DNA of 64,000 bases from an uncultured virus (IMG/VR IMGVR_UViG_3300017971_000274) (Duplodnaviria > Heunggongvirae > Uroviricota > Caudoviricetes): positions 1 to 64,000 of the IMG/VR virus record IMGVR_UViG_3300017971_000274. One strand, given 5' to 3'. Of the stretch, positions 417 to 12,270 are shown in pieces (within the stretch, counting starts at the first letter, position 1; each line of letters begins with the position of its first letter). A program made the translations under genes and the position numbers. The notes beneath the pieces are model-generated. The model did no database searches. It saw only the letters and a list, made by a program, of their open reading frames with translations, and had not been told where the DNA came from.

Positions 417-2300
417 GTGCGGGCAGATCGGATGGATAACATGCAAAACGAGAATCTCGGACCGGCTGAGAGAATCCTACAGACGGTCCTCTCTCACTCG
501 GGCCATGCTGTCCACAACCGTGCTGGTATCGCAGTTACCGACACCGGATCGGTCGTGGGTTCTAAGTGGTTGCCGGTCACTCACGTAGAGGAGAACGGCG
601 ACAAGATCGTTTACGAATTGCGTAAGGTCGGCCGCAAGAGCACCAAGGTCAAGCTGGGCAAGCTCAGCAATGACGGGCGTGTTCGGGACGGTCGTCGGGT
701 TGTAGGCAAGTACCAACCGGCCGGGTTGTACCCGGACGTTGTTGAGTGGGTCTACAAGCAGGTCGCGGAAGTCTGGAATCTCGATAACGAGTTCGCGGCC
801 AAGTGGGCCTCCTACGCATACGGCCAGGAGCACCGGGACCTCAAGGTCATCCTGGCAGCCTTCATGCTCGTTCAAACCCGTAAGGGTGATCCGGTCCTGG
901 ACAAGGGCAAGGTCGCGTTCCTCGACGAGGACTACCGTGACGTTGGCGAGGCCATGTTCCTGATCACCACCAAGGGCAAGGACGGCAAGGTCAGCTTCAA
1001 CCCGAAGTTGCTCATGAGGGTCCACGATGTTCTGAGCCTACCGGCCGTCGCCAAGATCAACCGGGATCTCGGTTTCGGTAAGTCCGCTCGTAAGCCGTTC
1101 CTGGGTCGTTGGCCCAAGGCCGTGGAGAAGTGGCTACGGTACCGGGAAGAGAACCCCAAGATGCTGGAAGGTCTGGTCAACGCGGGCTTCCGGCGTACGG
1201 TGATGGATCTGGCCCGTAAGGTCGGATACAAGCCGAACACCGGCAAGTTCTTCGAGACCCTTCGTTGGAAGCAAGCGCAGTCCAAGGAGGGGCACCGGAG
1301 CATCGCCATCGGCCAGGAGGTCAAGGCGGCGGAATCCTGGGAGGGTCTGACCGAAGAGCAGATCTGCGAGAAGATCACCCAGGACCGGCCGAACTGGAAG
1401 CGGGTCGTGGGTCTTCTGCCCAAGGACGGTGTGACCAGGGCTGTCATGGCGGCTGCCATCGAGGTCGGGTCCCTGTCCAACAAGGACCTGATCATCGCGA
1501 CCCCGACTCTGGAAGAGCTTGGACTGTTGGATGTCCAGGACATCCGGGTTCGGTGGGAGACGGCGGTCAAGGAGGCCGAAGACATGCGGGCGGCCAACAT
1601 CGCCCAGCGTGTCAAGTCCAAGAAGACCCAGGAGAAGCTGTCGGAGGCGGCCGACAACGCTGTCAAGAAGGCCGTCGCAGAGGTGCTCAATAGCCAGAGA
1701 ATCTACTTCTGTGTGGACGTTTCGTCCTCCATGCACAAGGCCATTCCGACGGCTAAGCGGTACCTGACCCAGTTCCTACAGGGGTTCCCCCTGGAGCGGA
1801 CTCACGTGTCGGTGTTCAACACCTCCGGTCGTGTTGTGAAGATCAAGCAGAACTCGTCGGCTGGTGTCGAGCAAGCTTTCCGTGGTTTCAGGGCGGGCGG
1901 CGGCACCGATTACGGAGCGGGCGTCAGGGTACTCCAGTCCTTCAAGCCTGAGGACGATGAAGACGTGATCTTCATCTTCGTGGGCGACGAAGAGGCGTAC
2001 GACTTCTCCGATTCCGTGAGGTCTTCCGGCCTCAACCCGGTTGCTTTCGGGTTCCTCAAGGTAGGCGGCACTCGCGGCTACACGGCGGTCCAGGACACGG
2101 CGGCCAATCTCGGTATCCCGTGCTTCATGATCGACGAGGGGATCTTCGCGGACCCGTACGCGATTCCCCGCACCATCAGAGACCTGATCGCGGCTACTCC
2201 GGTGGGCAAGGCGTCCAGAAAGGCGGCGGCTCCCAGAGTATCGCTGGTCGATCTCATCCTCAACACTGAGTTGCTGACCAAGCCCGCTTGGGCAGCTTGA
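417..2300 (+). CDS. Ro60/TROVE-like protein with C-terminal vWA domain
   Basis: MIDAS DVSSS, GGGTD and FVGDEE mark the vWA domain; GRWPKAVEKW and GFRRTVMDLARKVGYKP resemble Ro60 TROVE motifs; true start may be ATG 432 or 441. Confidence 0.7.
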   Translation: MRADRMDNMQNENLGPAERILQTVLSHSGHAVHNRAGIAVTDTGSVVGSKWLPVTHVEENGDKIVYELRKVGRKSTKVKLGKLSNDGRVRDGRRVVGKYQPAGLYPDVVEWVYKQVAEVWNLDNEFAAKWASYAYGQEHRDLKVILAAFMLVQTRKGDPVLDKGKVAFLDEDYRDVGEAMFLITTKGKDGKVSFNPKLLMRVHDVLSLPAVAKINRDLGFGKSARKPFLGRWPKAVEKWLRYREENPKMLEGLVNAGFRRTVMDLARKVGYKPNTGKFFETLRWKQAQSKEGHRSIAIGQEVKAAESWEGLTEEQICEKITQDRPNWKRVVGLLPKDGVTRAVMAAAIEVGSLSNKDLIIATPTLEELGLLDVQDIRVRWETAVKEAEDMRAANIAQRVKSKKTQEKLSEAADNAVKKAVAEVLNSQRIYFCVDVSSSMHKAIPTAKRYLTQFLQGFPLERTHVSVFNTSGRVVKIKQNSSAGVEQAFRGFRAGGGTDYGAGVRVLQSFKPEDDEDVIFIFVGDEEAYDFSDSVRSSGLNPVAFGFLKVGGTRGYTAVQDTAANLGIPCFMIDEGIFADPYAIPRTIRDLIAATPVGKASRKAAAPRVSLVDLILNTELLTKPAWAA

Positions 2301-2331: not shown

Positions 2332-3273
2332 ATGACTTGGAGAGACCTACTACAGACTAAGGATGAAACCCTGGTTTCGCCATGGGTCGGGGGTAGGTCT
2401 CTCCGGTCGGGTTCACGACAGTGGACCATCGACGGCCGTTTGCCGGATGAGCACGGTTGGGTAGTCTTCTCCCTGAACGGTCGGCGGGCGCGTGTTCTCC
2501 GACAGGCCGACGATTCTGACACTGATCTGCTCATGGGTAAGGTCATGGGTTATTTGGTCGGAGACAGGCTGGTCCCGCGTGACGTTCGAGTTGAGCCGAA
2601 GATCGCGGATATCGTGGCCAACGCGGAGCGCGTCCACCTGATCGAGCCGTTTCTGGACCGGTTCGTGTACGTCTCTGCCGGGCGTATGTGTGAGGACGGC
2701 CCGCTCTTTTTCATGCAACAAGAGATGCCGCTGGGTCCGGAGATGGACGTTCTGACGGCGTACCTGGACGGCAAGGATTCCGTGGCCGACATCAAGGATG
2801 TTTCCCCGGCCCTGGATGCCGCTTTCCGGATGGAGATCTTCCAACGGAAGGAGGCAGAGAAGCGTCGGCGGGAGCTTGCCGAAAAGCGCCAGCGGGAAGA
2901 AGAGGAGCGTCAAAAGGAGGCCCGTAGACGCGAGATCGTCGAGAAGCTGGGAGACGGCGCTGGCCGTCGGGAAATGGCTCTCCTGGACTTCGAGGAGGCC
3001 GCAAAGGCCGCTTTAGCGGTAGGCGGGGCTGTGCTTCTGGATCAACGTGCCGGGCACCGCAAGAACGAGATGATCGTTAAGTACCGGCTCAAGCGGCGGC
3101 GGTTCGAATGTACGTGCGACAAGAAAACTCTTAGGATTATCGATTCTGGGGTGTGTTTAACAGATCATGACACCGGAGAGAAGGGAGACGACCTACTGAC
3201 CCTTGAGAGCCTACCGTCCGTTATCCTGGAAGCGGAGCGAACGGGACAACTCGTGGTTTACAGGCACGTCTAA
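2332..3273 (+). CDS. hypothetical protein of the Ubl locus (coiled coil plus Cys-containing C-terminal domain)
   Basis: 313 aa ORF between the vWA and JAB genes; ECTCD...DSGVCLTDH motif. Confidence 0.75.
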   Translation: MTWRDLLQTKDETLVSPWVGGRSLRSGSRQWTIDGRLPDEHGWVVFSLNGRRARVLRQADDSDTDLLMGKVMGYLVGDRLVPRDVRVEPKIADIVANAERVHLIEPFLDRFVYVSAGRMCEDGPLFFMQQEMPLGPEMDVLTAYLDGKDSVADIKDVSPALDAAFRMEIFQRKEAEKRRRELAEKRQREEEERQKEARRREIVEKLGDGAGRREMALLDFEEAAKAALAVGGAVLLDQRAGHRKNEMIVKYRLKRRRFECTCDKKTLRIIDSGVCLTDHDTGEKGDDLLTLESLPSVILEAERTGQLVVYRHV

Positions 3274-3282
3274 GGTATTGAA

Positions 3283-3687
3283 ATGACTGTGGAAGCTGGA
3301 GTTCTAGTCGATCGTGAGGGAAAGCCACTGTTCTGGCATATCCCGACGGACCGGTCCGTGGCCTACCTTCCAGACAGCCGAACGCTCTGGGACGTGATCT
3401 GGGACAACCGGGACAGGGTGTTAGGATTTGCTCACAGCCACCCCGGCTCCGGGGTGCCGGGTCCCTCTTACGAGGACGTTACGACCTTCAACGGCGTGGA
3501 GACGGCTCTCGGTCGGAGGATAATCTGGTGGATCACGAGTTCCACCCATCTCGTTCACATCGTCTGGCAAGGCCCGGACAAATACGACTACCGCGTCAAT
3601 CTCAACAAATATTACCAGCCGATATGGCTACCAAGACTTCGAAAGGAATCGAGGTACGAGCTAGAAAGAGAGGTGCAGCATGGCTGA
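3283..3687 (+). CDS. JAB/MPN (JAMM) metalloprotease
   Basis: N-terminal E (VEAG) and HSHP-x6-PS-x2-D JAMM motif. Confidence 0.9.
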   Translation: MTVEAGVLVDREGKPLFWHIPTDRSVAYLPDSRTLWDVIWDNRDRVLGFAHSHPGSGVPGPSYEDVTTFNGVETALGRRIIWWITSSTHLVHIVWQGPDKYDYRVNLNKYYQPIWLPRLRKESRYELEREVQHG

Positions 3688-3946
3688 CAACATCAACGAA
3701 AACGACGCTCGCGTCAACATCACCTACGGGGGTCAGAACGGGGACCTTCCGGACCCGGTTCTCTTCGCTGCGTCTGACGACGACGTGAAGGGGTGGGTCT
3801 CCGAAGCCATCCGTGGCGGGGACATTCCCGGTATCCCGGCTCAGGCACCCGACCTGGGTAACTACGTCGTGGATCGGTTCAACGCAACCGACGCACGTCC
3901 CTACAACCTGATTCAGCTTCGGCCGAAGACGCCCTTCGGGGTTTGA
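3680..3946 (+). CDS. ubiquitin-like (beta-grasp) protein
   Basis: 88 aa, overlaps the JAB stop, SD GAGG, ends LIQLRPKTPFG-V; JAB and E1 context. Confidence 0.7.
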   Translation: MADNINENDARVNITYGGQNGDLPDPVLFAASDDDVKGWVSEAIRGGDIPGIPAQAPDLGNYVVDRFNATDARPYNLIQLRPKTPFGV

Positions 3947-3950
3947 GCCG

Positions 3951-4169
3951 ATGGCGGGTCAGGAACGTCCTGGTTGGTGTCCGCACACGGATTGTCGGTT
4001 CAAGCGGTTGAGCGACAATGCGTGTGTCGGGCATCTGCCGGAACCTTCCATAGAACACAGGATTTGCTTCGCGGGGGTCTTGCCGGACCCCGACGAGGTG
4101 TTCGAGCTAATGGTAGACGACTCGGATCTACGGGATCTTCGCTGGTTGCTCGAAGGGCTGAAGGAGTAA
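3951..4169 (+). CDS. small Cys-rich hypothetical protein
   Basis: CPHTDC..C..C; tightly packed with neighbours. Confidence 0.6.
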   Translation: MAGQERPGWCPHTDCRFKRLSDNACVGHLPEPSIEHRICFAGVLPDPDEVFELMVDDSDLRDLRWLLEGLKE

Positions 4170-4171
4170 AG

Positions 4172-4408
4172 ATGGCCTCGTTTGTTATAGGTGAGCCGGG
4201 GAACCGGCTTTTGGCGCGTATCGAAAAATCCAGTGGCGACCTCGTCCTGACAAGAGAAGAGGGTTCCCAGGAAACGAAGATAGTTATCTCGAAGGACGAG
4301 AAAAACGTCTTGCGGGAATGGCTCAGGCTTGATGAACTGTGGCCTGAGGGACTGTCGCCGGATCAGGCCGAAGCGGTCGTGGAGCTTTTACGCGAAAGAA
4401 CGGCCTGA
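4172..4408 (+). CDS. hypothetical protein
   Basis: AGGAG SD before ATG 4172. Confidence 0.6.
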   Translation: MASFVIGEPGNRLLARIEKSSGDLVLTREEGSQETKIVISKDEKNVLREWLRLDELWPEGLSPDQAEAVVELLRERTA

Positions 4409-4794
4409 TGGACATTGTAGTCACGTTGCCCAAGTCTTTCGGACTCAAGCGCTGGATTGCAGAGGGCGACCCGGCCGGGGCCAAATGGAGCGGCACGGAG
4501 TGGGGTTGGTTCATGGGGGGCAGCCCGCCGAAGAAGCTGCAACCCGGCGACCGTGTTTATGTGGTCTACAGCGGCCACCTTATCGGATACTCGCCGTTGA
4601 TACGGATAGACGACGACCCCGTATGCTACGACACGAACGTTCCCGTCTACTTCAAGGACAGCTTTGCCCTGGTTCGAGGTGGTGACGCCGTAGCTGTCAC
4701 GATCGACCAGAAGATTCGGGGCTTCCAGGGCTACCGCTACCGTTGGTGGGACCGGTCGGAAGAAAGACCGTTCCCGGAGTGGCAGAAGCTATGA
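4408..4794 (+). CDS. ASCH/PUA-like domain protein
   Basis: PGDRVYVV..G.LIGY and C-terminal IRGFQGYRY pattern; TGATG coupling. Confidence 0.45.
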   Translation: MDIVVTLPKSFGLKRWIAEGDPAGAKWSGTEWGWFMGGSPPKKLQPGDRVYVVYSGHLIGYSPLIRIDDDPVCYDTNVPVYFKDSFALVRGGDAVAVTIDQKIRGFQGYRYRWWDRSEERPFPEWQKL

Positions 4795-4994
4795 CTACCC
4801 TGAAGGGCGCAACTGTTCAGATTACGGAGCAAACCGTTCGCGAACTTGTTCAGGCCATCGACCAAGCCAAGAAGCTGGCCAACCCTCCTGAGGTGGCTGT
4901 AGTCGCTTCTTCCCATTCTAGTACCAGTTTCGAGATCGCCCTGGAGCTAACACCACACACCCAGGAGTCGCTGGGGTATCGTCGGAGACCATGA
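4791..4994 (+). CDS. hypothetical protein
   Basis: ATGA overlaps at both ends. Confidence 0.55.
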   Translation: MTTLKGATVQITEQTVRELVQAIDQAKKLANPPEVAVVASSHSSTSFEIALELTPHTQESLGYRRRP

Positions 4995-5251
4995 TCACTC
5001 AACACAGGACAGAGTTTTCGTGTCCCGTTTGCGGGGGCGACACATTCGGCAGTGTCGAGAATAAAGAGACCGGCGAGTGGGAATACACCTGTTCCGGTGG
5101 TTATTGTGCTGCCGCTGTCAGCGGCCCGTTCAAGTTCAAAGCGAGTGATATGTGGAAGTATTTCAAGGGTGTGACGAGACGCCACTTCGACTCCTGGAAC
5201 GAGTTTCGTAAGTGGGACAAGAAGAAAGGAACAGGTGTGTCGGGACCATAA
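4991..5251 (+). CDS. Zn-ribbon hypothetical protein
   Basis: CPVC...CSGGYC. Confidence 0.6.
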   Translation: MITQHRTEFSCPVCGGDTFGSVENKETGEWEYTCSGGYCAAAVSGPFKFKASDMWKYFKGVTRRHFDSWNEFRKWDKKKGTGVSGP

Positions 5252-5688
5252 TGGGCTACTCAATCTACGTTGCTGCCAGGAGCCAAAAAGACCAGAAGCG
5301 GATGTTCGACTTTCTGGAACAACACTTCAAGTACATGACTCCCCTTCCGGAGGCGTCGGCGCTTTGGCTGACCACGGACATGGCGTATTCCGAGAAGGTG
5401 AAGTGGCCCGTCGGGTTCGACTACAAGTCCTGGATCAGTTTCGGTGAACGGACGTACGCCTACGCCGTGATCTACTGGATGGCCCAGGTTCTGACCAAAG
5501 CCCCTCATTATTACTATTACGACTTCGATCGAGAGAAGGTGCCCGAAGAAGAAGACGAAGAGGCCCTTTACAAGTTCCTACGGGAGCCTCTTAGTCGCTT
5601 TGAACAGGGTGATGCCAGAGAGATCGCTGCTTTCATAGCCAAGGAGCGGGACCGGCTAAAAACCCTCTGGCAAGAAGAAAATGCTTAG
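5251..5688 (+). CDS. hypothetical protein
   Basis: TAATG coupling, start MGYSIYV. Confidence 0.6.
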   Translation: MGYSIYVAARSQKDQKRMFDFLEQHFKYMTPLPEASALWLTTDMAYSEKVKWPVGFDYKSWISFGERTYAYAVIYWMAQVLTKAPHYYYYDFDREKVPEEEDEEALYKFLREPLSRFEQGDAREIAAFIAKERDRLKTLWQEENA

Positions 5689-5718
5689 GTCTTTCAACAG
5701 CCAACCGTACACAGGGGT

Positions 5719-6288
5719 ATGAAGAACATCACGATCATAGGTGCCGGTGCTCTAGGCTCACATTTGATACTGTTCCTACGGAACGAGGCGACCATGAAGG
5801 TCGTCGATTTCGACCGGGTGGAGCAAAAGAACACGTTGAGCCAGTTCCATGGCAAGGCGGGCGTCGGCAAGAACAAGACGCAGTCCCTGGCCCAGGCAAT
5901 GCAGTTCCTATTCGGGATCAAGCTCAACATGGTCCCGCACAAACTGACGGCCGACAACGAGAAGGAGCTTCTGGGCGGTGCCGATCTGGTCATCGACTGC
6001 CTGGACAACCCAGAGTCTCGGCGCGTGGTCCAGGGTTTCGCCAAGGAGGCCGAGATCCCGTGTCTCCACGGAGCGCTGGCCGCCGACGGAGCTTTCGGCC
6101 GGGTGGTCTGGACCGAGAATTTCGTCATCGACGACGGGGCAGCCGGGGCCGCCACTTGCGAGGACGGTGAGCATCTGCCCTTCATCGCTGTGGTCTCTGC
6201 CCTTCTGGCCCGGTCGGCTCAGGCGTTCCTCAAGGACGGCAAGAAAATCGGTTATGAAATCAGCCCAGGCGGTGTAATTATTACTTGA
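5719..6288 (+). CDS. ThiF/MoeB/E1-like adenylyltransferase
   Basis: IIGAGALGS nucleotide-binding loop, DFDRVEQKNTLSQ, VIDCLDN; candidate catalytic Cys in ATCEDG; no Zn CxxC pairs. Confidence 0.92.
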   Translation: MKNITIIGAGALGSHLILFLRNEATMKVVDFDRVEQKNTLSQFHGKAGVGKNKTQSLAQAMQFLFGIKLNMVPHKLTADNEKELLGGADLVIDCLDNPESRRVVQGFAKEAEIPCLHGALAADGAFGRVVWTENFVIDDGAAGAATCEDGEHLPFIAVVSALLARSAQAFLKDGKKIGYEISPGGVIIT

Positions 6289-6313
6289 CAACACCGTTTG
6301 GATCAGTATCTTA

Positions 6314-6414
6314 GGGGACGTACCCAATACCTATACCTTACACGACGATTAAACCGGGCGGCAAAGAAGCCGCCCACCGCAGTAACCAACAGGTTTAGAA
6401 CTCGGGTACACTCC
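6314..6414 (+). ncRNA. Y-RNA-like element A (shared module plus simple hairpin)
   Basis: GTACCC/GGGTAC stem, AATAC/AACTC internal loop, CTATACCT/AGGTTTAG stem, TACAC, inner hairpin GGGCGGC/GCCGCCC. Confidence 0.7.
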
Positions 6415-6422
6415 ACTAATAA

Positions 6423-6563
6423 GGGGCTATACAGACGGACGGTCCGTCACCTTTCTATCGAAGAGGAAAAACCAAAAACCCAGGATCGATTCTCGGCTCT
6501 GCAAGGAGCCATATTTCTGGTCCTCACAAGCGTTTTAGGGTTCGACTCCCGATAGCCCCTCCA
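6423..6563 (+). ncRNA. tRNA-like element B with shared module in the variable region
   Basis: GGGGCTA/TAGCCCC acceptor followed by TCCA, T loop TTCGACT, inserted module capped by a GCAA loop, CACAAGC. Confidence 0.7.
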
Positions 6564-6564
6564 A

Positions 6565-6704
6565 CCCGTACCCAACAGGTGAATCTTACATGCATACACA
6601 GGTTCGAATCCTGTTTTCCAAACCAAAACTATTGGAAATAGCCTAGTGGTTAGGCACTCGTCTAGAAAACGAGCAATCAAACAGGTTCATGACTCGGGTG
6701 CGGG
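6565..6704 (+). ncRNA. circularly permuted tRNA-like element C (loop CTAGAAA) closed by the shared module
   Basis: Order is T arm, acceptor 3' strand plus ACCA, acceptor 5' strand, D arm, anticodon arm; terminal stems CCCGTACCC/GGGTGCGGG and GTGAATCT/AGGTTCAT. Confidence 0.8.
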
Positions 6705-6713
6705 AAGATTTTA

Positions 6714-6852
6714 GGCAGACTGGGCCGGGTGGCCCGCTTACGATCATAACGTAGGTTTGTACGCAATCAGCACCTAACACTCGTTCTCGCGAGAGAACAA
6801 TACTTCTGTGCTCACAAGCAAAATTGTTGGTTCGAGTCCAACGTCTGCCACC
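6714..6852 (+). ncRNA. tRNA(CAT)-like element D with shared module in the variable region
   Basis: GGCAGAC/GTCTGCC acceptor, anticodon loop ATCATAA, T arm GTTGG-TTCGAGT-CCAAC, insert capped by GCGA, CACAAGC. Confidence 0.75.
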
Positions 6853-6978
6853 GAGAGCGATCAATCGGAGAAAGCATACAAGCGTAGCTCATTTAGGGTA
6901 GAGCGTCTGTTTTACACACAGAAAGTAGTGGGTTCGATTCCCATCGCAAACATCCTGCTTCTCGTCTCGAACGCTCTC
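6853..6978 (+). ncRNA. tRNA-Val(TAC)-like element E with the acceptor stem replaced by the shared module
   Basis: Canonical D, anticodon (TTTACAC) and T arms; acceptor only GCG/CGC; flanks GAGAAAGCA/TGCTTCTC and GAGAGCG/CGCTCTC; TACAAGC. Confidence 0.75.
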
Positions 6979-7014
6979 TAACTTTTCAGCATCATTTTGT
7001 AGGCAGCGGTTGGT

Positions 7015-7308
7015 ATGTACAGCTACGACCGCCGTCTTGCGCTCCAGCTAGAGCCTTTACCCTCCTGGACGTTCACCAAGCCGCTCACGAAGGCTTTCAG
7101 GGAACTTGACCGGGTAGACGTTTACAAGGCTTACGGTACTTTTGAAGATCTGTTCGGCAACCTGGAACGGCTGGAAGCCCTGGAGCCGCGTGAGGTACGT
7201 GAAGGAGAGCAACTCTCACGGACGTTCGCGGAACTCCGACGTGAGACGCTTAACGCGATGGTCGATGCTTCCAATCTATTCGAAGTTATCAAACGCCGGG
7301 CCACGTAA
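7015..7308 (+). CDS. hypothetical protein (MYSYDRR N-terminus)
   Basis: N-terminus shared with the next gene. Confidence 0.65.
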   Translation: MYSYDRRLALQLEPLPSWTFTKPLTKAFRELDRVDVYKAYGTFEDLFGNLERLEALEPREVREGEQLSRTFAELRRETLNAMVDASNLFEVIKRRAT

Positions 7309-8556: not shown

Positions 8557-9069
8557 ATGCCAGAAGAGCGGAAGTGTAAGCATTGTCACAAAACTAAGCC
8601 TATCGGGAAGTTCAGACCGTTAAGGCGCAATTCCCCTTACCGACGGCGAATCTGCACAGCTTGTTATGGTAAAGTTTACTGGCAGCGGCACAAGGACAAA
8701 TTGAATGTTCAACGTAGTCAGTATCGTAAGAACAATCCAGCACAAGCGATCTACAGTGACACTAGAGCCGTCGATCGTAAGAAAGGGAGAGCCAACGATC
8801 TCACAAAGGAGTTTATCGCAGAGTCGATTTCCAAAGGTTGTAGCTATTGCGGAGAGGCGTCGATTAGAATGAGCTTGGATCGTATCGATAATAGTAAAGG
8901 ACACACCGTTGATAATGTGGTCCCAGCTTGCATAAGATGTAATACCATTCGGGGGTCAATGCCTTATGACGCATGGCTGCGTATTGCCCCGGCCATTCGG
9001 AAGACTCGTAAGGCGGGCCTTTTTGGCTCGTGGGTTGGCCGTCGATTTCCTGCTCGGGTGGTGGAATAG
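8557..9069 (+). CDS. HNH-family endonuclease with Zn fingers
   Basis: CSYCG...LDRIDNSKGHTVDNVVPACIRCN. Confidence 0.8.
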   Translation: MPEERKCKHCHKTKPIGKFRPLRRNSPYRRRICTACYGKVYWQRHKDKLNVQRSQYRKNNPAQAIYSDTRAVDRKKGRANDLTKEFIAESISKGCSYCGEASIRMSLDRIDNSKGHTVDNVVPACIRCNTIRGSMPYDAWLRIAPAIRKTRKAGLFGSWVGRRFPARVVE

Positions 9070-9141
9070 GTAGACACAGGCGAAGTCGCTATAGGGCTTT
9101 GCTGGCCGGGAGGCTTGTAAGTTCGACTCTTACCCCGAGCA
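9052..9141 (+). tRNA. atypical tRNA-Leu-like RNA with a 9-bp anticodon stem
   Basis: GCTCGGG/CCCGAGC-A acceptor, Leu-type D arm, long variable arm, T arm GTAAG-TTCGACT-CTTAC. Confidence 0.7.
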
Positions 9142-9152
9142 CGATTAGGTGA

Positions 9153-9365: not shown

Positions 9366-9905
9366 ATGTCTGAGTTCCATACACTATTACTGACCCCGTG
9401 GATGCAACCACACCGAATCGTTCCTTGGCAGGACGCTATCTGTCGGCTCTACATGGGAGAGATCGAGGTCTTGGAGTCTTACGACGAGACCGTGTCGTCT
9501 CCGAGTGTGACCTACCAGATTCCGTCCGTAGCTAGACTTACGTCCAAAATCCCGACCCACAAGAAGGGTGTCAAGTTCTCGCGGATCAACGTTCTGACTC
9601 GTGACAACTTCACCTGCCAGTACTGTGGGAATCGGCTTCCGCGTCGTGAGTTGAACTACGATCACGTGACCCCGAGGAACCAGGGCGGTAAGACTAACTG
9701 GATCAACATTGTCACGGCGTGCTACGCCTGTAATGCCCGTAAGGCCGGTCGTACTCCCAGGCAAGCCAAGATGAGGTTGCTTAGGAAACCGTACAGGCCC
9801 AAGTCTCTACCGCTTCCCATGCCAGCGATTCCGATCGAGATGTGTCCGGAGGAGTGGTCCTTCTATCTGGGAGGCACGCCCCGGCACATGTTGGCGGCTG
9901 GATAA
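9366..9905 (+). CDS. HNH endonuclease
   Basis: RDNFTCQYCG...DHVTPRNQGG...NIVTACYACN. Confidence 0.92.
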   Translation: MSEFHTLLLTPWMQPHRIVPWQDAICRLYMGEIEVLESYDETVSSPSVTYQIPSVARLTSKIPTHKKGVKFSRINVLTRDNFTCQYCGNRLPRRELNYDHVTPRNQGGKTNWINIVTACYACNARKAGRTPRQAKMRLLRKPYRPKSLPLPMPAIPIEMCPEEWSFYLGGTPRHMLAAG

Positions 9906-10504: not shown

Positions 10505-10689
10505 GGTAAGCGTGAGGCCGCGCCTCCGGGTTGGGTCTCTCGTGCCGCTGATCGCGCCTAAGGAAAATCCGAGGTTTGGAAAGGCGGTGGACGTTCTGTG
10601 ACCGCTTAGCGGTCCTTTGGTTTTGGGGTCAGTCCAGGCCCGCACCAGGGGAAGTTGCTAGGCCAGACGGCTACGGGAGGACCAAAGCC

Positions 10690-12270
10690 ATGGAAATTAG
10701 TGCGAAACTCACATTTGATAAAGTCCAGTTTGACCTGGAAAACGAAGCCCACCTTGTCCTAGGGCTGTCAGCACCGTCGGTGTCGGTCGAAGACAAGCGA
10801 CCCCGGTTGTGCATCATACCGCTCGTGGACGTGTCCGGCTCTATGATGGGGTCAAAGCTCGTCTACGCGAAACGCTCGCTGACCAAGTTGATCGAGCACC
10901 TCTCACCGAACGATTACTGCGGCCTGATCGACTTCTCCGAATCTGCCCAGGTGATCTCAAGGCCCGTACCTTGTACCGCCGAAGCCAAGGAGGATCTGAA
11001 ACGTAAGGTTAGCGATCTTCAGACGAGAGGGTCCACCAACATTGCCGACGCGCTTCTCAAGGGTTTTGAACTTGCCCAAGAGGCGGACCTGTCGTCGGAG
11101 GTCATCCTAAGGGTCATTCTCTTCACGGATGGCAACGCCAACAGGGGTCCCGCCACAGAGCCGGAAGATCTCGTGGAGTTGGTTGGGTCCAACATGGAGA
11201 CGAGCACTGTTAGCGCTTTCGGCTACGGGTCGGACGTTCGTCAAGACATGCTTCTCGATATGTCCAAGAGAGGCAAAGGCAATTATGCCTTCGTGCAAAA
11301 CCCTGACGACGCGCTGTCGGCCTTCGGTAAGGAACTGGGCGGTCTGCTCAGCACCTACGCCACCAACCTGATAATCGACGTGAACCCGCTGGCCGGTCAC
11401 GAGATCGCTCAGGTGGTTTCGGACGTGGACGCCGACGAAGGGGATCTGGGCCAAGTGACTATCAAGATCCCGGATATCCTGTCTGACGAGGTCCGGAACA
11501 TCGTTTTGGCTGTCAAGTTGAAGGCCCAGAAGAACGCCTTTCCTCGTGAGATGAATGTCTTCGAGGTCAAGGCAGGTTATGACACCCTGGACGCAAACCT
11601 CCGGAAGGAGCACAAACAGGTCGAAGCCAAGGCCAAGGTCCAGTTCGTGAAGGCCGGTGAGCACCAGGAGAAGCCGGACGAGGAATTGGACAACATCGTG
11701 GGGCTGGCCCAGCTTGTTCGAGCGCAGATCGAGGCCGAAGAGCACGCCAAAGCGGGCAACTACGACTACGCTGTCCAGCACATGAACGACATTGGCGACG
11801 AATTCAAGACTCGTGGCCTGATCGGTGCTGCGGCGATGTCCAAGGGGATTAGCTCGCGGATGGGTAGCCGGACTTCTTACACGGCCAACGCCGCGTACTT
11901 CGCCAGCGTCACTCGTGGAGCCACGCGGGGTATGGGAGGCACCTACGAGGTGTCGGCAGCGGAGGATCTCGCCAACGCGGGCGTAACACTCTCCAACGCC
12001 GCCCAAGACGCCACGGCCGACGCCTTCTCTGCGGATGGTACAGGAGACGGTTCTATCTCTTCGGGTGGGAACTCATCGGTGGATAGCTCCGACCTGTACA
12101 TCGAGGCGGGCGATAATCAGCCTCTGACGTGGACCGCCAATCCCGACACGCTGACCAGCCCGGATTCGGTGGTGGTGCCAAGTCCGATCACCATCCCAGG
12201 CCAACCTGAGGAGAAGCCGGTCGAGAAGCCCAAGAAGCGTAAGATCGCCCAGAAGTCAAAGCGGTGGTAA
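10690..12270 (+). CDS. vWA domain protein (YfbK-like)
   Basis: DVSGSM MIDAS, GSTN, LFTDG; SD GGAGG before ATG 10690. Confidence 0.85.
   Translation: MEISAKLTFDKVQFDLENEAHLVLGLSAPSVSVEDKRPRLCIIPLVDVSGSMMGSKLVYAKRSLTKLIEHLSPNDYCGLIDFSESAQVISRPVPCTAEAKEDLKRKVSDLQTRGSTNIADALLKGFELAQEADLSSEVILRVILFTDGNANRGPATEPEDLVELVGSNMETSTVSAFGYGSDVRQDMLLDMSKRGKGNYAFVQNPDDALSAFGKELGGLLSTYATNLIIDVNPLAGHEIAQVVSDVDADEGDLGQVTIKIPDILSDEVRNIVLAVKLKAQKNAFPREMNVFEVKAGYDTLDANLRKEHKQVEAKAKVQFVKAGEHQEKPDEELDNIVGLAQLVRAQIEAEEHAKAGNYDYAVQHMNDIGDEFKTRGLIGAAAMSKGISSRMGSRTSYTANAAYFASVTRGATRGMGGTYEVSAAEDLANAGVTLSNAAQDATADAFSADGTGDGSISSGGNSSVDSSDLYIEAGDNQPLTWTANPDTLTSPDSVVVPSPITIPGQPEEKPVEKPKKRKIAQKSKRW

What the first reader, a model, noticed from the sequence alone, without database searches (positions are those of the whole stretch)
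6565..6704. Circularly permuted tRNA with an internal ACCA and an intact anticodon arm
Order is T arm (6598-6614), acceptor 3' strand TTTCCAA plus ACCA (6615-6625), short linker, acceptor 5' strand TTGGAAA (6632-6638), D arm, anticodon arm CTCGT-CTAGAAA-ACGAG. The break is at the variable loop, closed by the shared module. YrlA RNAs also have a closed acceptor stem, but their terminal stem replaces the anticodon arm; here that arm is kept. Inference: RNase P cleavage and 3' trimming could give a two-piece, CCA-ended RNA like permuted tmRNA. An AGA (A34) anticodon is unusual in bacteria.
Basis: partly seen in the sequence, partly recalled or inferred. Interest (0 to 1): 0.8.

Follow-up and report, generated by a model that had tools for sequence, protein, structure and literature searches.

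The report
Permuted tRNA-shaped Y-like phage RNA
A huge phage encodes a small RNA that is a complete tRNA cloverleaf drawn in rotated order, probably the partner of a hidden Ro60-like protein encoded nearby, extending the tRNA-mimicking Y RNAs already known from bacteria.

Summary
Window 6565-6704 (+) folds into a 9-bp outer stem, a 5x5 internal loop, an 8-bp inner stem, then T arm, closed 7-bp acceptor stem with ACCA, D arm and a 5-bp/7-nt anticodon-like arm. The MFE z-score is -4.9.

A covariance model finds 25 such RNAs, nearly all on huge-phage contigs. 94.7% of pair cells are paired, and 32 of 37 pairs show compensatory changes.

It is a circular permutation of neighbouring modules A (6423-6564) and C (6714-6853). 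Those keep an open acceptor end and carry the same arm as a closed hairpin.

The closest known kind is YrlA, the tRNA-like bacterial Y RNA, but Rfam's threshold and the GNCGAAN0-1G motif are not met. ORF 417-2300 looks like a divergent Ro60 (TROVE-like fold plus VWA). In 10 of 10 phage genomes it lies 1.5-4.9 kb from this RNA on the same strand.

N-CCA sits exactly after the acceptor strand in 10 of 25 homologues. M. smegmatis YrlA is cleaved by RNase P and gains CCA, so two-piece processing is plausible but unproven.

The AGA triplet is not conserved, so decoding is unlikely. Verdict: a new variant of a known kind.

The parts
6565..6573 (+). outer stem, 5' strand (CCCGTACCC)
   Evidence: pairs with 6696-6704; helix 1 has compensatory changes in 9 of 10 pairs
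6574..6578 (+). internal loop, 5' side (AACAG)
   Evidence: commonest forms among homologues are AACAG, ACCAG and CGCAG
6579..6586 (+). inner stem, 5' strand (GTGAATCT)
   Evidence: pairs with 6683-6690; helix 2 has compensatory changes in 5 of 7 pairs; the junction-side C-G and U-A pairs are nearly invariant
6585..6593 (+). shared motif CTTACATGC (family consensus CTYACAWGC), just 5' of the T arm
   Evidence: 4 matches in the window, 3 of them in modules A, B and C; 1.27 expected; (C/T)ACA(A/T)GC in 23 of 25 homologues, variant in L037 and L001
6598..6614 (+). T arm with canonical TTCGAAT loop
   Evidence: 100% of cells paired
6615..6621 (+). acceptor stem, 3' strand (TTTCCAA)
   Evidence: 7 Watson-Crick pairs with 6632-6638; all 7 pairs covary
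6622..6631 (+). acceptor-closing loop: ACCA (6622-6625) plus AAACTA
   Evidence: N-CCA at this exact offset in 10 of 25 homologues; loop 7-15 nt with CCA, 4-7 nt without, with one exception of 23 nt
6632..6638 (+). acceptor stem, 5' strand (TTGGAAA); predicted RNase P site at 6631/6632
   Evidence: the cleavage site is inferred from the M. smegmatis YrlA precedent
6641..6655 (+). D arm (GCCT-AGTGGTT-AGGC) with GG in the loop
   Evidence: GG in the D loop of 25 of 25 homologues
6657..6673 (+). anticodon-like arm CTCGT-CTAGAAA-ACGAG
   Evidence: all 5 pairs covary; the loop triplet is not conserved
6683..6690 (+). inner stem, 3' strand (AGGTTCAT)
6691..6696 (+). internal loop, 3' side GACTC, plus the first G of the outer stem; CTCG is invariant
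   Evidence: CTCG in 25 of 25 homologues
6696..6704 (+). outer stem, 3' strand (GGGTGCGGG)
6423..6564 (+). module A: unpermuted sibling, with open acceptor GGGGCTA/TAGCCCC then T-CCA (6560-6563); the same arm forms a closed hairpin at the variable position
6714..6853 (+). module C: second unpermuted sibling, GGCAGAC/GTCTGCC then A-CCG
6853..6978 (+). module D: D, anticodon (UAC) and T arms, with the shared arm in place of the acceptor stem
   Evidence: Rfam tRNA 47.5 bits, model positions 5-66 only; fold
417..2300 (+). 627-aa ORF, probably a divergent Ro60-like protein (TROVE-like helical N-terminal part plus C-terminal VWA with a MIDAS motif)
   Evidence: close to the RNA in 10 of 10 genomes
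6285..6312 (+). promoter-like site TTGACA-16-TATCTT upstream of the RNA cluster
   Evidence: 1 found, 0.9 expected, so not significant alone; similar hexamers seen by eye at the same place in L045, L048 and L049

Best explanation
Window 6565-6704 is a structured non-coding RNA of a huge phage. It is built like a Y RNA of the YrlA type. A long terminal stem with a conserved internal loop acts as the handle. Its invariant features are CUCG on the 3' strand and YACAWGC at the junction. The stem carries a tRNA-mimic domain with T arm, closed 7-bp acceptor stem, D arm and, unlike YrlA, a retained anticodon-like arm. The terminal stem therefore leaves the cloverleaf at the variable-loop position. 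The RNA is a circular permutation of sibling RNAs A and C in the same cluster, most simply derived from a tandem duplicate of such a module. Inferred steps: the cluster A-B-C-D is transcribed as one precursor and cut apart by tRNA-processing enzymes at the tRNA-like ends of A and C, which releases B. The handle is bound by the Ro60-like protein of ORF 417-2300. The tRNA-like domain engages tRNA-recognising factors. In CCA-bearing members such as this one, RNase P probably cuts at 6631/6632 and leaves a nicked two-piece RNA with a 3' ACCA (about even odds). Shown here: the structure, its conservation, the permutation relationship and the gene linkage. Not shown: expression, processing, protein binding and function.
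For: Structure: (see the observation check). Family: model R1 finds 25 full-length matches at E <= 1e-15 in 23 sources. 16 of these are seed sequences and 9 are new: L115 twice, L057, L173, L037, L015, L174, L001 and L024. Each of 5 huge-phage genomes holds 1-3 strong copies. Permutation: B's first part aligns collinearly with the second parts of A and C, through arm strand, CTYACAWGC, T arm, acceptor 3' strand and NCC. B's second part parallels their first parts. 33 A-type modules carry the same arm. YrlA likeness: the order stem / T / closed acceptor / D / stem matches YrlA as described in PMC4201824. Rfam YrlA gives sub-threshold hits of 21.9-28.1 bits on the T-acceptor-D core at 10 B-type copies in 9 of 16 relatives' loci scanned. 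Partner protein: the full-length AF2 model (pLDDT 79) has Ro60/TROVE entries as its top 12 Foldseek PDB rows, E 8e-9 to 3e-6 over 515-564 columns. For the N-terminal 420 aa alone (pLDDT 82), the top 3 of 48,161 chains are Rsr 2nvo (Z 9.4), phage phiLo Ro60 9l5y (Z 8.7) and Ro 1yvp (Z 7.2); the next, unrelated, chain has Z 6.6. Language-model neighbours are TROVE clusters at 0.85. The C-terminal VWA has invariant D434, S436, S438, T497 and D524. Linkage: the gene is present in 10 of 10 genomes that hold B. It lies on the same strand 1.5-4.9 kb away, downstream of the gene in 8 and upstream in 2, so proximity survives a change of order (with the contig ranges). Two-piece option: a 7-bp acceptor stem; N-CCA in 10 of 25 B-type against 15 of 33 A-type tails; the M. 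smegmatis YrlA precedent; a CCA-adding-family gene and RtcB in the 416-kb genome of this phage.
Against: There is no expression or end-mapping data. Rfam YrlA does not reach its gathering score: no hit on B itself at E <= 10, and at most 28.1 of 69 bits in relatives. The YrlA motif GNCGAAN0-1G is absent from the 5' part of 0 of 25. The protein is not recognised as TROVE by sequence. Pfam finds nothing at E <= 0.01. A PF05731 six-frame search finds 0 of 5 genomes. PDB sequence and profile searches find only VWA chains. The fold evidence is moderate: TM 0.22-0.36, rmsd 11-21 A, Z values in the range that helical repeats can reach by chance, and Foldseek on the N-terminal part alone has no row at E <= 0.001. 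The 10 phages are relatives, so linkage is partly inherited synteny. Alignment A2 was fitted to the model. Against processing: 15 of 25 lack CCA and mostly have 4-7 nt loops.
Confidence: 0.62

Rival explanations
1. It is a tRNA decoy or sponge that works without the Ro60-like protein. The tRNA-shaped body would soak up or mislead host tRNA-targeting factors, such as anticodon nucleases, modification enzymes or defence sensors. The shared arm would only stabilise the RNA or direct its processing.
For: The L-shape determinants are complete: T loop, GG in the D loop, U8 and A26. The anticodon-like loops differ between phages as if tracking different targets. There are many paralogous tRNA-like modules per genome, next to large tRNA arrays. 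Phage-encoded RtcB and CCA-adding-family genes point to a conflict over tRNA.
Against: It does not explain the invariant CUCG and the near-invariant YACAWGC in the arm. It does not explain the persistent same-strand proximity to the Ro60-like gene in 10 of 10 genomes, including 2 with changed order. Loops without U33 or with 8 nt are poor mimics of an anticodon loop.
Confidence: 0.17
2. It is a true circularly permuted tRNA gene. After RNase P cleavage and 3' trimming, the two-piece molecule would be aminoacylated and would decode UCU with anticodon AGA. Alternatively it would act like a two-piece tmRNA.
For: All four arms, a 7-bp acceptor stem and an encoded ACCA are present. In the window's sub-clade the loop keeps the signature C32 U33 NNN R37 A38. 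Permuted tmRNA and permuted tRNA genes exist; the review PMC3978253 was seen only as a listing and abstract start.
Against: The triplet changes from AGA to UGU in the closest relative, with identical stems. U33 is present in 13-14 of 25, and 6 of 25 loops have 8 nt. 15 of 25 lack CCA. About 50 nt of stem sit at the variable position. By recalled knowledge, there are no serine identity features. There is no bulge-helix-bulge at the termini. No tag reading frame or tmRNA call was found. The 3:70 pair is G-C, not G-U.
Confidence: 0.04
3. It is a decaying remnant of recombination between tandem tRNA-like repeats, or a chance fold, with no function of its own.
For: It lies inside a tandem array of related modules, where unequal crossing-over is easy. 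ARAGORN and Rfam call nothing here.
Against: 25 homologues on diverged phage contigs keep all six helices through compensatory changes. The acceptor and arm strands of one unit pair with each other, not with those of neighbouring modules.
Confidence: 0.02

Closest known systems
YrlA (Y RNA-like A; Rfam RF02553; Chen et al. 2014, PMC4201824)
   Same: The 5' and 3' ends pair into a long stem with an internal loop. The stem carries a tRNA-like domain in the order T arm, closed acceptor-like stem, D arm. The RNA is encoded on the same strand within a few kb of a Ro60-type gene, and YrlA also occurs in phages. The M. smegmatis member has a 7-bp acceptor stem, is cut by RNase P and gains CCA, giving two pieces that stay with Rsr.
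   Different: An anticodon-like arm is kept, so the terminal stem leaves from the variable-loop position rather than the anticodon-stem position. The GNCGAAN0-1G motif is absent; the conserved features here are an invariant CUCG and YACAWGC. Scores are far below Rfam's threshold. N-CCA is genome-encoded in 10 of 25. Unpermuted siblings with the same arm lie beside it. The partner protein is too divergent for Pfam TROVE.
Two-piece (circularly permuted) tmRNA genes
   Same: The gene order is T arm, acceptor 3' strand, CCA, a short intervening segment, then acceptor 5' strand. The idea that excising the intervening loop leaves two base-paired pieces with a CCA end is also shared.
   Different: There is no tag reading frame, no pseudoknots and no G3:U70. 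Neither ARAGORN nor Rfam tmRNA_permuted calls B. A full D arm and an anticodon-like arm are present, which tmRNA lacks.
Circularly permuted tRNA genes of Cyanidioschyzon merolae and some archaea (PMC3978253; listing and abstract start only)
   Same: The 3' half of a cloverleaf is encoded upstream of the 5' half, with the natural acceptor ends joined by a short linker.
   Different: By recalled knowledge, those mature through a bulge-helix-bulge cut, a circular intermediate and RNase P/Z into ordinary tRNAs. Here the termini form a 9 + 8 bp stem with a 5x5 loop and no bulge-helix-bulge. The triplet is not conserved, and the host is bacterial by gene content.
Ro60 / Rsr (TROVE plus vWFA ring proteins), including Thermus phage phiLo Ro60 (PDB 9l5y)
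   Same: ORF 417-2300 has a helical-repeat N-terminal part followed by a VWA domain with a MIDAS motif. Ro60 entries are its best structural matches.
   Different: No sequence-level TROVE match was found. There is an extra beta-rich insert at about residues 37-100. TM-scores are low. RNA binding has not been tested.

Membership tests
YrlA (Rfam RF02553 / Chen et al. 2014) | Reaches the Rfam gathering score (69 bits) | tested here: not met
   No YrlA hit on 6565-6704 at E <= 10. The only YrlA hit in the window spans modules C and D, at 21.8 bits. B-type relatives score 21.9-28.1 bits.
YrlA (Rfam RF02553 / Chen et al. 2014) | T stem-loop, closed acceptor-like stem-loop and D stem-loop in that order, inside a stem formed by the RNA's two ends | tested here: met
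   The order and the tRNA-like loop sequences are conserved in 25 of 25.
YrlA (Rfam RF02553 / Chen et al. 2014) | GNCGAAN0-1G motif near the 5' end (presumed Rsr contact) | tested here: not met
   Present in the 5' part of 0 of 25 B-type sequences.
YrlA (Rfam RF02553 / Chen et al. 2014) | Encoded within about 4 kb of a Ro60 orthologue on the same strand | tested here: inconclusive
   Same strand, 1.5-4.9 kb from the ORF 417-2300 homologue in 10 of 10 genomes. That the ORF is a Ro60 orthologue rests only on fold and feature similarity.
YrlA (Rfam RF02553 / Chen et al. 2014) | Bound by Rsr/Ro60 in vivo | not testable with these tools
   Needs immunoprecipitation or a binding assay.
Functional (decoding) tRNA, permuted gene | Conserved anticodon and canonical 7-nt loop with U33 | tested here: not met
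   The triplet differs in nearly every homologue. U33 is present in 13-14 of 25. The loop has 7 nt in 19 of 25 and 8 nt in 6 of 25.
Functional (decoding) tRNA, permuted gene | Bulge-helix-bulge at the paired termini for splicing-endonuclease maturation | tested here: not met
   The termini form 9-bp and 8-bp helices around a symmetric 5x5 loop.
Two-piece tmRNA | Tag-peptide reading frame with resume codon, pseudoknots, G3:U70 | tested here: not met
   ARAGORN finds no tmRNA. Rfam tmRNA_permuted has no hit on B. The 3:70 pair is G-C.
Ro60 / TROVE protein (ORF 417-2300) | Pfam TROVE (PF05731) domain | tested here: not met
   No hit at E <= 0.01. A six-frame PF05731 search found it in 0 of 5 phage genomes, while the controls found it in D. 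radiodurans and B. thetaiotaomicron.
Ro60 / TROVE protein (ORF 417-2300) | Ro-like fold: helical-repeat ring followed by a vWFA domain | tested here: inconclusive
   The top 12 Foldseek rows are Ro60/TROVE (E 8e-9 to 3e-6, TM 0.22-0.36). For the N-terminal part, the top 3 of 48,161 chains are Ro60 proteins (Z 9.4, 8.7, 7.2; rmsd 18-21 A). Foldseek on the N-terminal part alone has no row at E <= 0.001.
Ro60 / TROVE protein (ORF 417-2300) | C-terminal vWFA domain with MIDAS residues | tested here: met
   VWA_2 at 1.3e-7. VWA chains match at Z about 15. D434, S436, S438, T497 and D524 are invariant in 50 sequences.

The most novel reading that the evidence does not exclude
The cluster encodes a set of tRNAs with a handle. 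One protein-binding arm (invariant CUCG, plus YACAWGC) is grafted onto tRNA bodies in three topologies: open acceptor end with CCA (A, C), closed or nicked acceptor (B), and arm in place of the acceptor (D). The CCA-ended forms, including two-piece B after RNase P cleavage, would be genuine substrates of CCA-dependent enzymes such as synthetases, EF-Tu or the ribosome. A phage Ro60-like ring would thereby be delivered to the translation or tRNA-surveillance machinery of the host. This would be a Y-RNA system that works through charged or chargeable tRNA mimics.
Probability: 0.15. Interest if true: 0.9.

Novelty: new variant of a known kind. Interest (0 to 1): 0.68.

Why it matters
Y RNAs tether Ro60 to effectors, and why bacterial Y RNAs mimic tRNA is still unknown. 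This phage family shows the tRNA body and the stem module as separable parts. They are recombined in three connectivities within one 560-nt cluster, and the complete cloverleaf and often the CCA are retained. That offers natural variants for asking which tRNA features matter. It also flags a large clade of Ro60-like proteins that sequence profiles miss: 1549 relatives at E <= 1e-5 among the 7999 candidates scored. And it extends RNase P-nicked, CCA-ended Y RNAs from one mycobacterium to a testable group of huge phages. Practically, it shows that tRNA finders and Rfam miss a recurrent class of phage RNAs sitting in regions that look non-coding.

Tried and rejected
- RNA-seq support: the look-up of sequencing runs listed 5 runs and no RNA holder.
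- The search of earlier findings returned nothing for this genome.
- The first pattern scan failed on a syntax rule. The pattern was rewritten and accepted.
- Phage GenBank blastn of 6300-7000 found only a 62-nt tRNA-like match in Rhodococcus phage Trina.
Most were chance matches inside ordinary tRNAs. Only 2 of the 80 loci searched (L115 and L057, both on short MAG contigs) hold B-type RNAs. Presence in cellular genomes is therefore not established.
- Sequence routes to Ro60 all failed: Pfam, PHROGs, PDB phmmer, PDB profile search and a PF05731 genome search.
- pdb_via on the full model listed only VWA domains, so it could not test the N-terminal part.
- Foldseek on the N-terminal part alone gave no row at E <= 0.001.
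- Literature searches found no description of this family: 'YrlA / Y RNA / tRNA-like', 'permuted tRNA / bacteriophage / tRNA-like' and 'huge phages / tRNA-like / noncoding RNA / tmRNA'. PMC10690425 lists viral tRNA-like candidates, but none could be matched from the passages read, and its supplements were not opened. The 2026 preprint on three tRNA-mimic families was read as abstract and outline only.
- My early view that the internal CCA is a one-off, based on Rctr197k and the first four relatives, was dropped once 10 of 25 showed it.
- Considered and rejected: a bulge-helix-bulge intron, a K-turn in the internal loop (no tandem G-A), and a tmRNA reading frame.

Full report
**1. The observation**

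The window is the first 64 kb of a 73-kb IMG/VR virus record. Its gene content is that of a huge phage: chaperonin, clamp-loader subunits, ribonucleotide reductase, NAD-dependent ligase, RecD2-like helicase and RecA. A 416-kb record, G001, carries the same sequence at 100% identity for two tested proteins.

Between a ThiF-like ORF (5719-6288) and the ORF starting at 7015 lies about 600 nt with no convincing reading frame.

RNAfold gives the described cloverleaf as both MFE and centroid, closed by a 9-bp outer stem, a 5x5 internal loop and an 8-bp inner stem. The energy is -47 kcal/mol, z = -4.88, and 0 of 200 shuffles fold as well.

ARAGORN reports only three ordinary tRNAs elsewhere in the window. 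Rfam at gathering thresholds reports nothing at this element.

**2. It is a conserved RNA family**

Three routes gave relatives:
- the protein relative Virus Rctr197k;
- a scan of IMG/VR with the motif-plus-T-arm pattern, giving 41 loci, many from 300-620 kb contigs;
- loci fetched through the ThiF-like neighbour, giving 10 loci.

A script that looked for a T arm followed by a self-complementary acceptor hairpin found the same arrangement in many of these loci.

Eighteen homologues folded one at a time all give outer stem, internal loop, inner stem, T arm, closed acceptor, D arm and a 5-bp hairpin. RNAalifold on a MAFFT alignment of 16 finds 37 pairs, 31 of them with compensatory changes.

A covariance model, R1, finds 25 matches at E <= 1e-15 in 23 sources. 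Sixteen are seed sequences and 9 are new.

On that alignment 94.7% of cells pair and 32 of 37 pairs change on both sides. None of 500 shuffles reaches the observed values, and sliding the partner by 1-3 columns drops pairing to 31-47%. The alignment is model-fitted, so serve as the independent checks.

Five huge-phage genomes each hold 1-3 strong copies. The window's phage has a second copy outside the window. Among the 80 genome-contig loci searched, only two short MAG contigs hold the RNA.

**3. It is a circular permutation of its neighbours**

The 6400-7000 region holds four abutting modules.

- A (6423-6564) and C (6714-6853) have an open 7-bp acceptor stem ending in T-CCA and A-CCG. They also have a hairpin at the D position, a 5-bp/7-nt hairpin at the anticodon position and a T arm. 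Between anticodon hairpin and T arm sits a roughly 65-nt hairpin with an internal loop.
- B's first part (6565-6627) aligns collinearly with the second parts of A and C, through arm strand, CTYACAWGC, T arm, acceptor 3' strand and NCC.
- B's second part parallels their first parts.
- The motif CTYACAWGC occurs 4 times in 64 kb, 3 of them here, with 1.27 expected.
- D (6853-6978) has D, anticodon (UAC) and T arms that Rfam scores as tRNA positions 5-66 (47.5 bits). Its acceptor stem is replaced by the same arm.

So one arm is attached to a tRNA body in three connectivities. B is what a tandem A-A duplicate gives when cut in the two arm loops. That origin is an inference.

The two acceptor strands of B pair with each other, as do its two arm strands, with covariation. 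B is therefore a unit of its own, not an overlap of two neighbouring modules.

**4. What is and is not conserved**

Conserved in 25 of 25:
- the T loop (TTCGANT, with one TTCAAGT);
- GG in the D loop;
- A26;
- CTCG at the 3' side of the internal loop.

The motif (C/T)ACA(A/T)GC before the T arm is present in 23 of 25; L037 (AACAAGC) and L001 (ACCAAGC) carry variants.

Not conserved is the anticodon triplet:
- the window has AGA, while the closest relative L032 has UGU with identical stems;
- others read GCA, ACG, CGU, GAA and so on;
- U33 is present in 13-14 of 25;
- the loop has 7 nt in 19 of 25 and 8 nt in 6 of 25.

The arm is thus kept as a shape, not as a decoder.

N-CCA follows the 7-nt acceptor 3' strand at exactly positions 73-76 in 10 of 25, against about 0.4 expected for a fixed trinucleotide. 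Those ten have loops of 7-15 nt. The 15 without CCA have loops of 4-7 nt, with one exception of 23 nt.

A script count gives 9 of 21 for closed forms and 15 of 33 for the open A-type tails. Two of the window's three ordinary tRNAs also encode CCA. The embedded CCA is therefore kept about as often as a real 3' end is.

**5. A probable partner**

ORF 417-2300 (627 aa) showed only a C-terminal VWA domain by Pfam. It gave nothing in PHROGs or in PDB sequence searches.

Protein-language-model neighbours of residues 1-420 are TROVE clusters at 0.85, which is only a lead.

An AF2 model from 50 sequences (pLDDT 79) has Ro60/TROVE entries as its top 12 Foldseek PDB rows. These include frog and human Ro60, D. 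radiodurans Rsr and Thermus phage phiLo Ro60. E-values run from 8e-9 to 3e-6 over 515-564 columns, but TM is only 0.22-0.36.

The N-terminal 420 aa modelled alone (pLDDT 82) and aligned to 48,161 chains ranks Rsr (Z 9.4), phiLo Ro60 (Z 8.7) and Ro (Z 7.2) first. The next, unrelated, chain has Z 6.6, and rmsd is 18-21 A. Foldseek on that part alone finds nothing at E <= 0.001, though Ro60 rows have the highest probabilities in its list.

I read this as a divergent Ro60-like protein with about 0.75 confidence.

Its gene is in 10 of 10 genomes that hold the RNA. It lies on the same strand 1.5-4.9 kb away, upstream of the RNA in 8 and downstream in 2. The YrlA study used 'within 4 kb, same strand' as its criterion. 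No Pfam-detectable TROVE gene exists in 5 of these genomes.

**6. Comparison with the known**

YrlA RNAs have a terminal stem with a presumed Rsr site (GNCGAAN0-1G), then an optional V hairpin, T arm, closed acceptor-like stem and D arm. They occur in more than 250 bacteria and 22 phages.

M. smegmatis YrlA has a 7-bp acceptor stem. It is cut by RNase P in vitro and in vivo, gains CCA, and both halves co-precipitate with Rsr (section 8 read in full).

The present RNA shares that architecture and genomic logic but fails two membership tests:
- Rfam score: no hit on B, and 21.9-28.1 of 69 bits on relatives' T-acceptor-D cores;
- the GNCGAAN0-1G motif: 0 of 25.

It also adds an anticodon-like arm. 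It works like a YrlA but is not a member of RF02553. It is not a tmRNA and not a maturable permuted tRNA of the algal or archaeal kind (see the membership table).

**7. Mechanism, with what is shown and what is inferred**

Shown:
- the fold and its conservation;
- the permutation relationship;
- the shared arm with an invariant CUCG and near-invariant YACAWGC;
- linkage to the Ro60-like gene;
- a CCA-adding-family gene and RtcB in this phage's 416-kb genome.

Inferred:
- transcription from a promoter-like site at 6285-6312 (not significant alone; similar hexamers seen by eye in relatives);
- release of B by 3' maturation of A one base upstream (A's CCA is 6561-6563, B starts at 6565) and by RNase P at C's 5' end (6713/6714);
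- binding of the arm by the Ro60-like protein;
- engagement of tRNA-recognising factors by the cloverleaf;
- at about even odds, RNase P cleavage at 6631/6632, giving a 61-nt piece ending in ACCA and a 73-nt piece held together by 24 base pairs.

**8. Verdict**

The finding is real and is better than a curiosity. It is a previously unrecognised huge-phage relative of tRNA-like Y RNAs, with permuted and unpermuted forms side by side and a cryptic Ro60-like gene next door. The decoding and 'unusual anticodon' reading is rejected. The two-piece reading stays open and is directly testable.

Noticed in passing
L003:734-826 (record G005, 497 kb): A bacterial small SRP RNA match above Rfam's threshold (57.7 bits against 40) lies directly after the two tandem B-type RNAs of another huge phage.
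   Followed up: no
window 2332-6288: Between the Ro60-like gene and the RNA cluster lie a weak Prok-JAB ORF (3283-3687, E 2.6e-4, below Pfam's cut-off) and a ThiF/E1-like ORF (5719-6288, E 2.5e-22). The ThiF-like gene precedes the RNA cluster in all 10 related loci and in Rctr197k. A ubiquitin-like conjugation set or a tRNA-modifying E1-like enzyme are both possible.
   Followed up: partly
window 6853-6978: Module D scores 47.5 bits as tRNA (model positions 5-66, UAC loop) but has only about 3 acceptor pairs. The shared arm replaces the acceptor stem. ARAGORN does not call it, while an Rfam-based annotation would wrongly list it as a tRNA.
   Followed up: partly
window 8557-9142 and 9366-9905: Two HNH endonuclease ORFs flank tRNA-Leu(aag) at 9052-9142. 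The first ORF (ending at 9069) overlaps the start of the tRNA by 18 nt.
   Followed up: no
window 10576-12270: A second VWA protein (564 aa, VWA at residues 80-244, N-terminal) lies a few kb downstream. Its relation to the Ro60-like ORF was not examined.
   Followed up: no
G001:C1:91829-91983 (locus L173:230-384, minus strand): A second B-type RNA (97.5 bits) in the window's own phage lies inside its large tRNA region, outside the window. It has a short ACATC acceptor loop and an ACG loop triplet.
   Followed up: partly
L001:21678-21823, L037:526-697, L015:292-456: Variants of the family exist. Rctr197k and L037 carry an extra hairpin between the motif and the T arm, in the position of YrlA's V arm. 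L015 has a 23-nt acceptor loop with its own small hairpin.
   Followed up: no
L007:67-375, L047:5583-5716, L048:4681-4819, L023:586-720, L016:502-643: A sub-type of the open (A-type) modules has a near-identical 5' part (CACAGGGGATCGGTTCCCCA...) and an extra mini-hairpin before the arm. Several distinct paralogue lineages of the tRNA-with-arm family therefore seem to exist.
   Followed up: no
L024:194-300 and L024:305-437: Two modules here are scored by Rfam as full-length tRNA (41.2 and 42.7 bits, model positions 1-71) with a long insertion at the variable region. This suggests that some A-type modules are close to ordinary class-II-like tRNAs.
   Followed up: no
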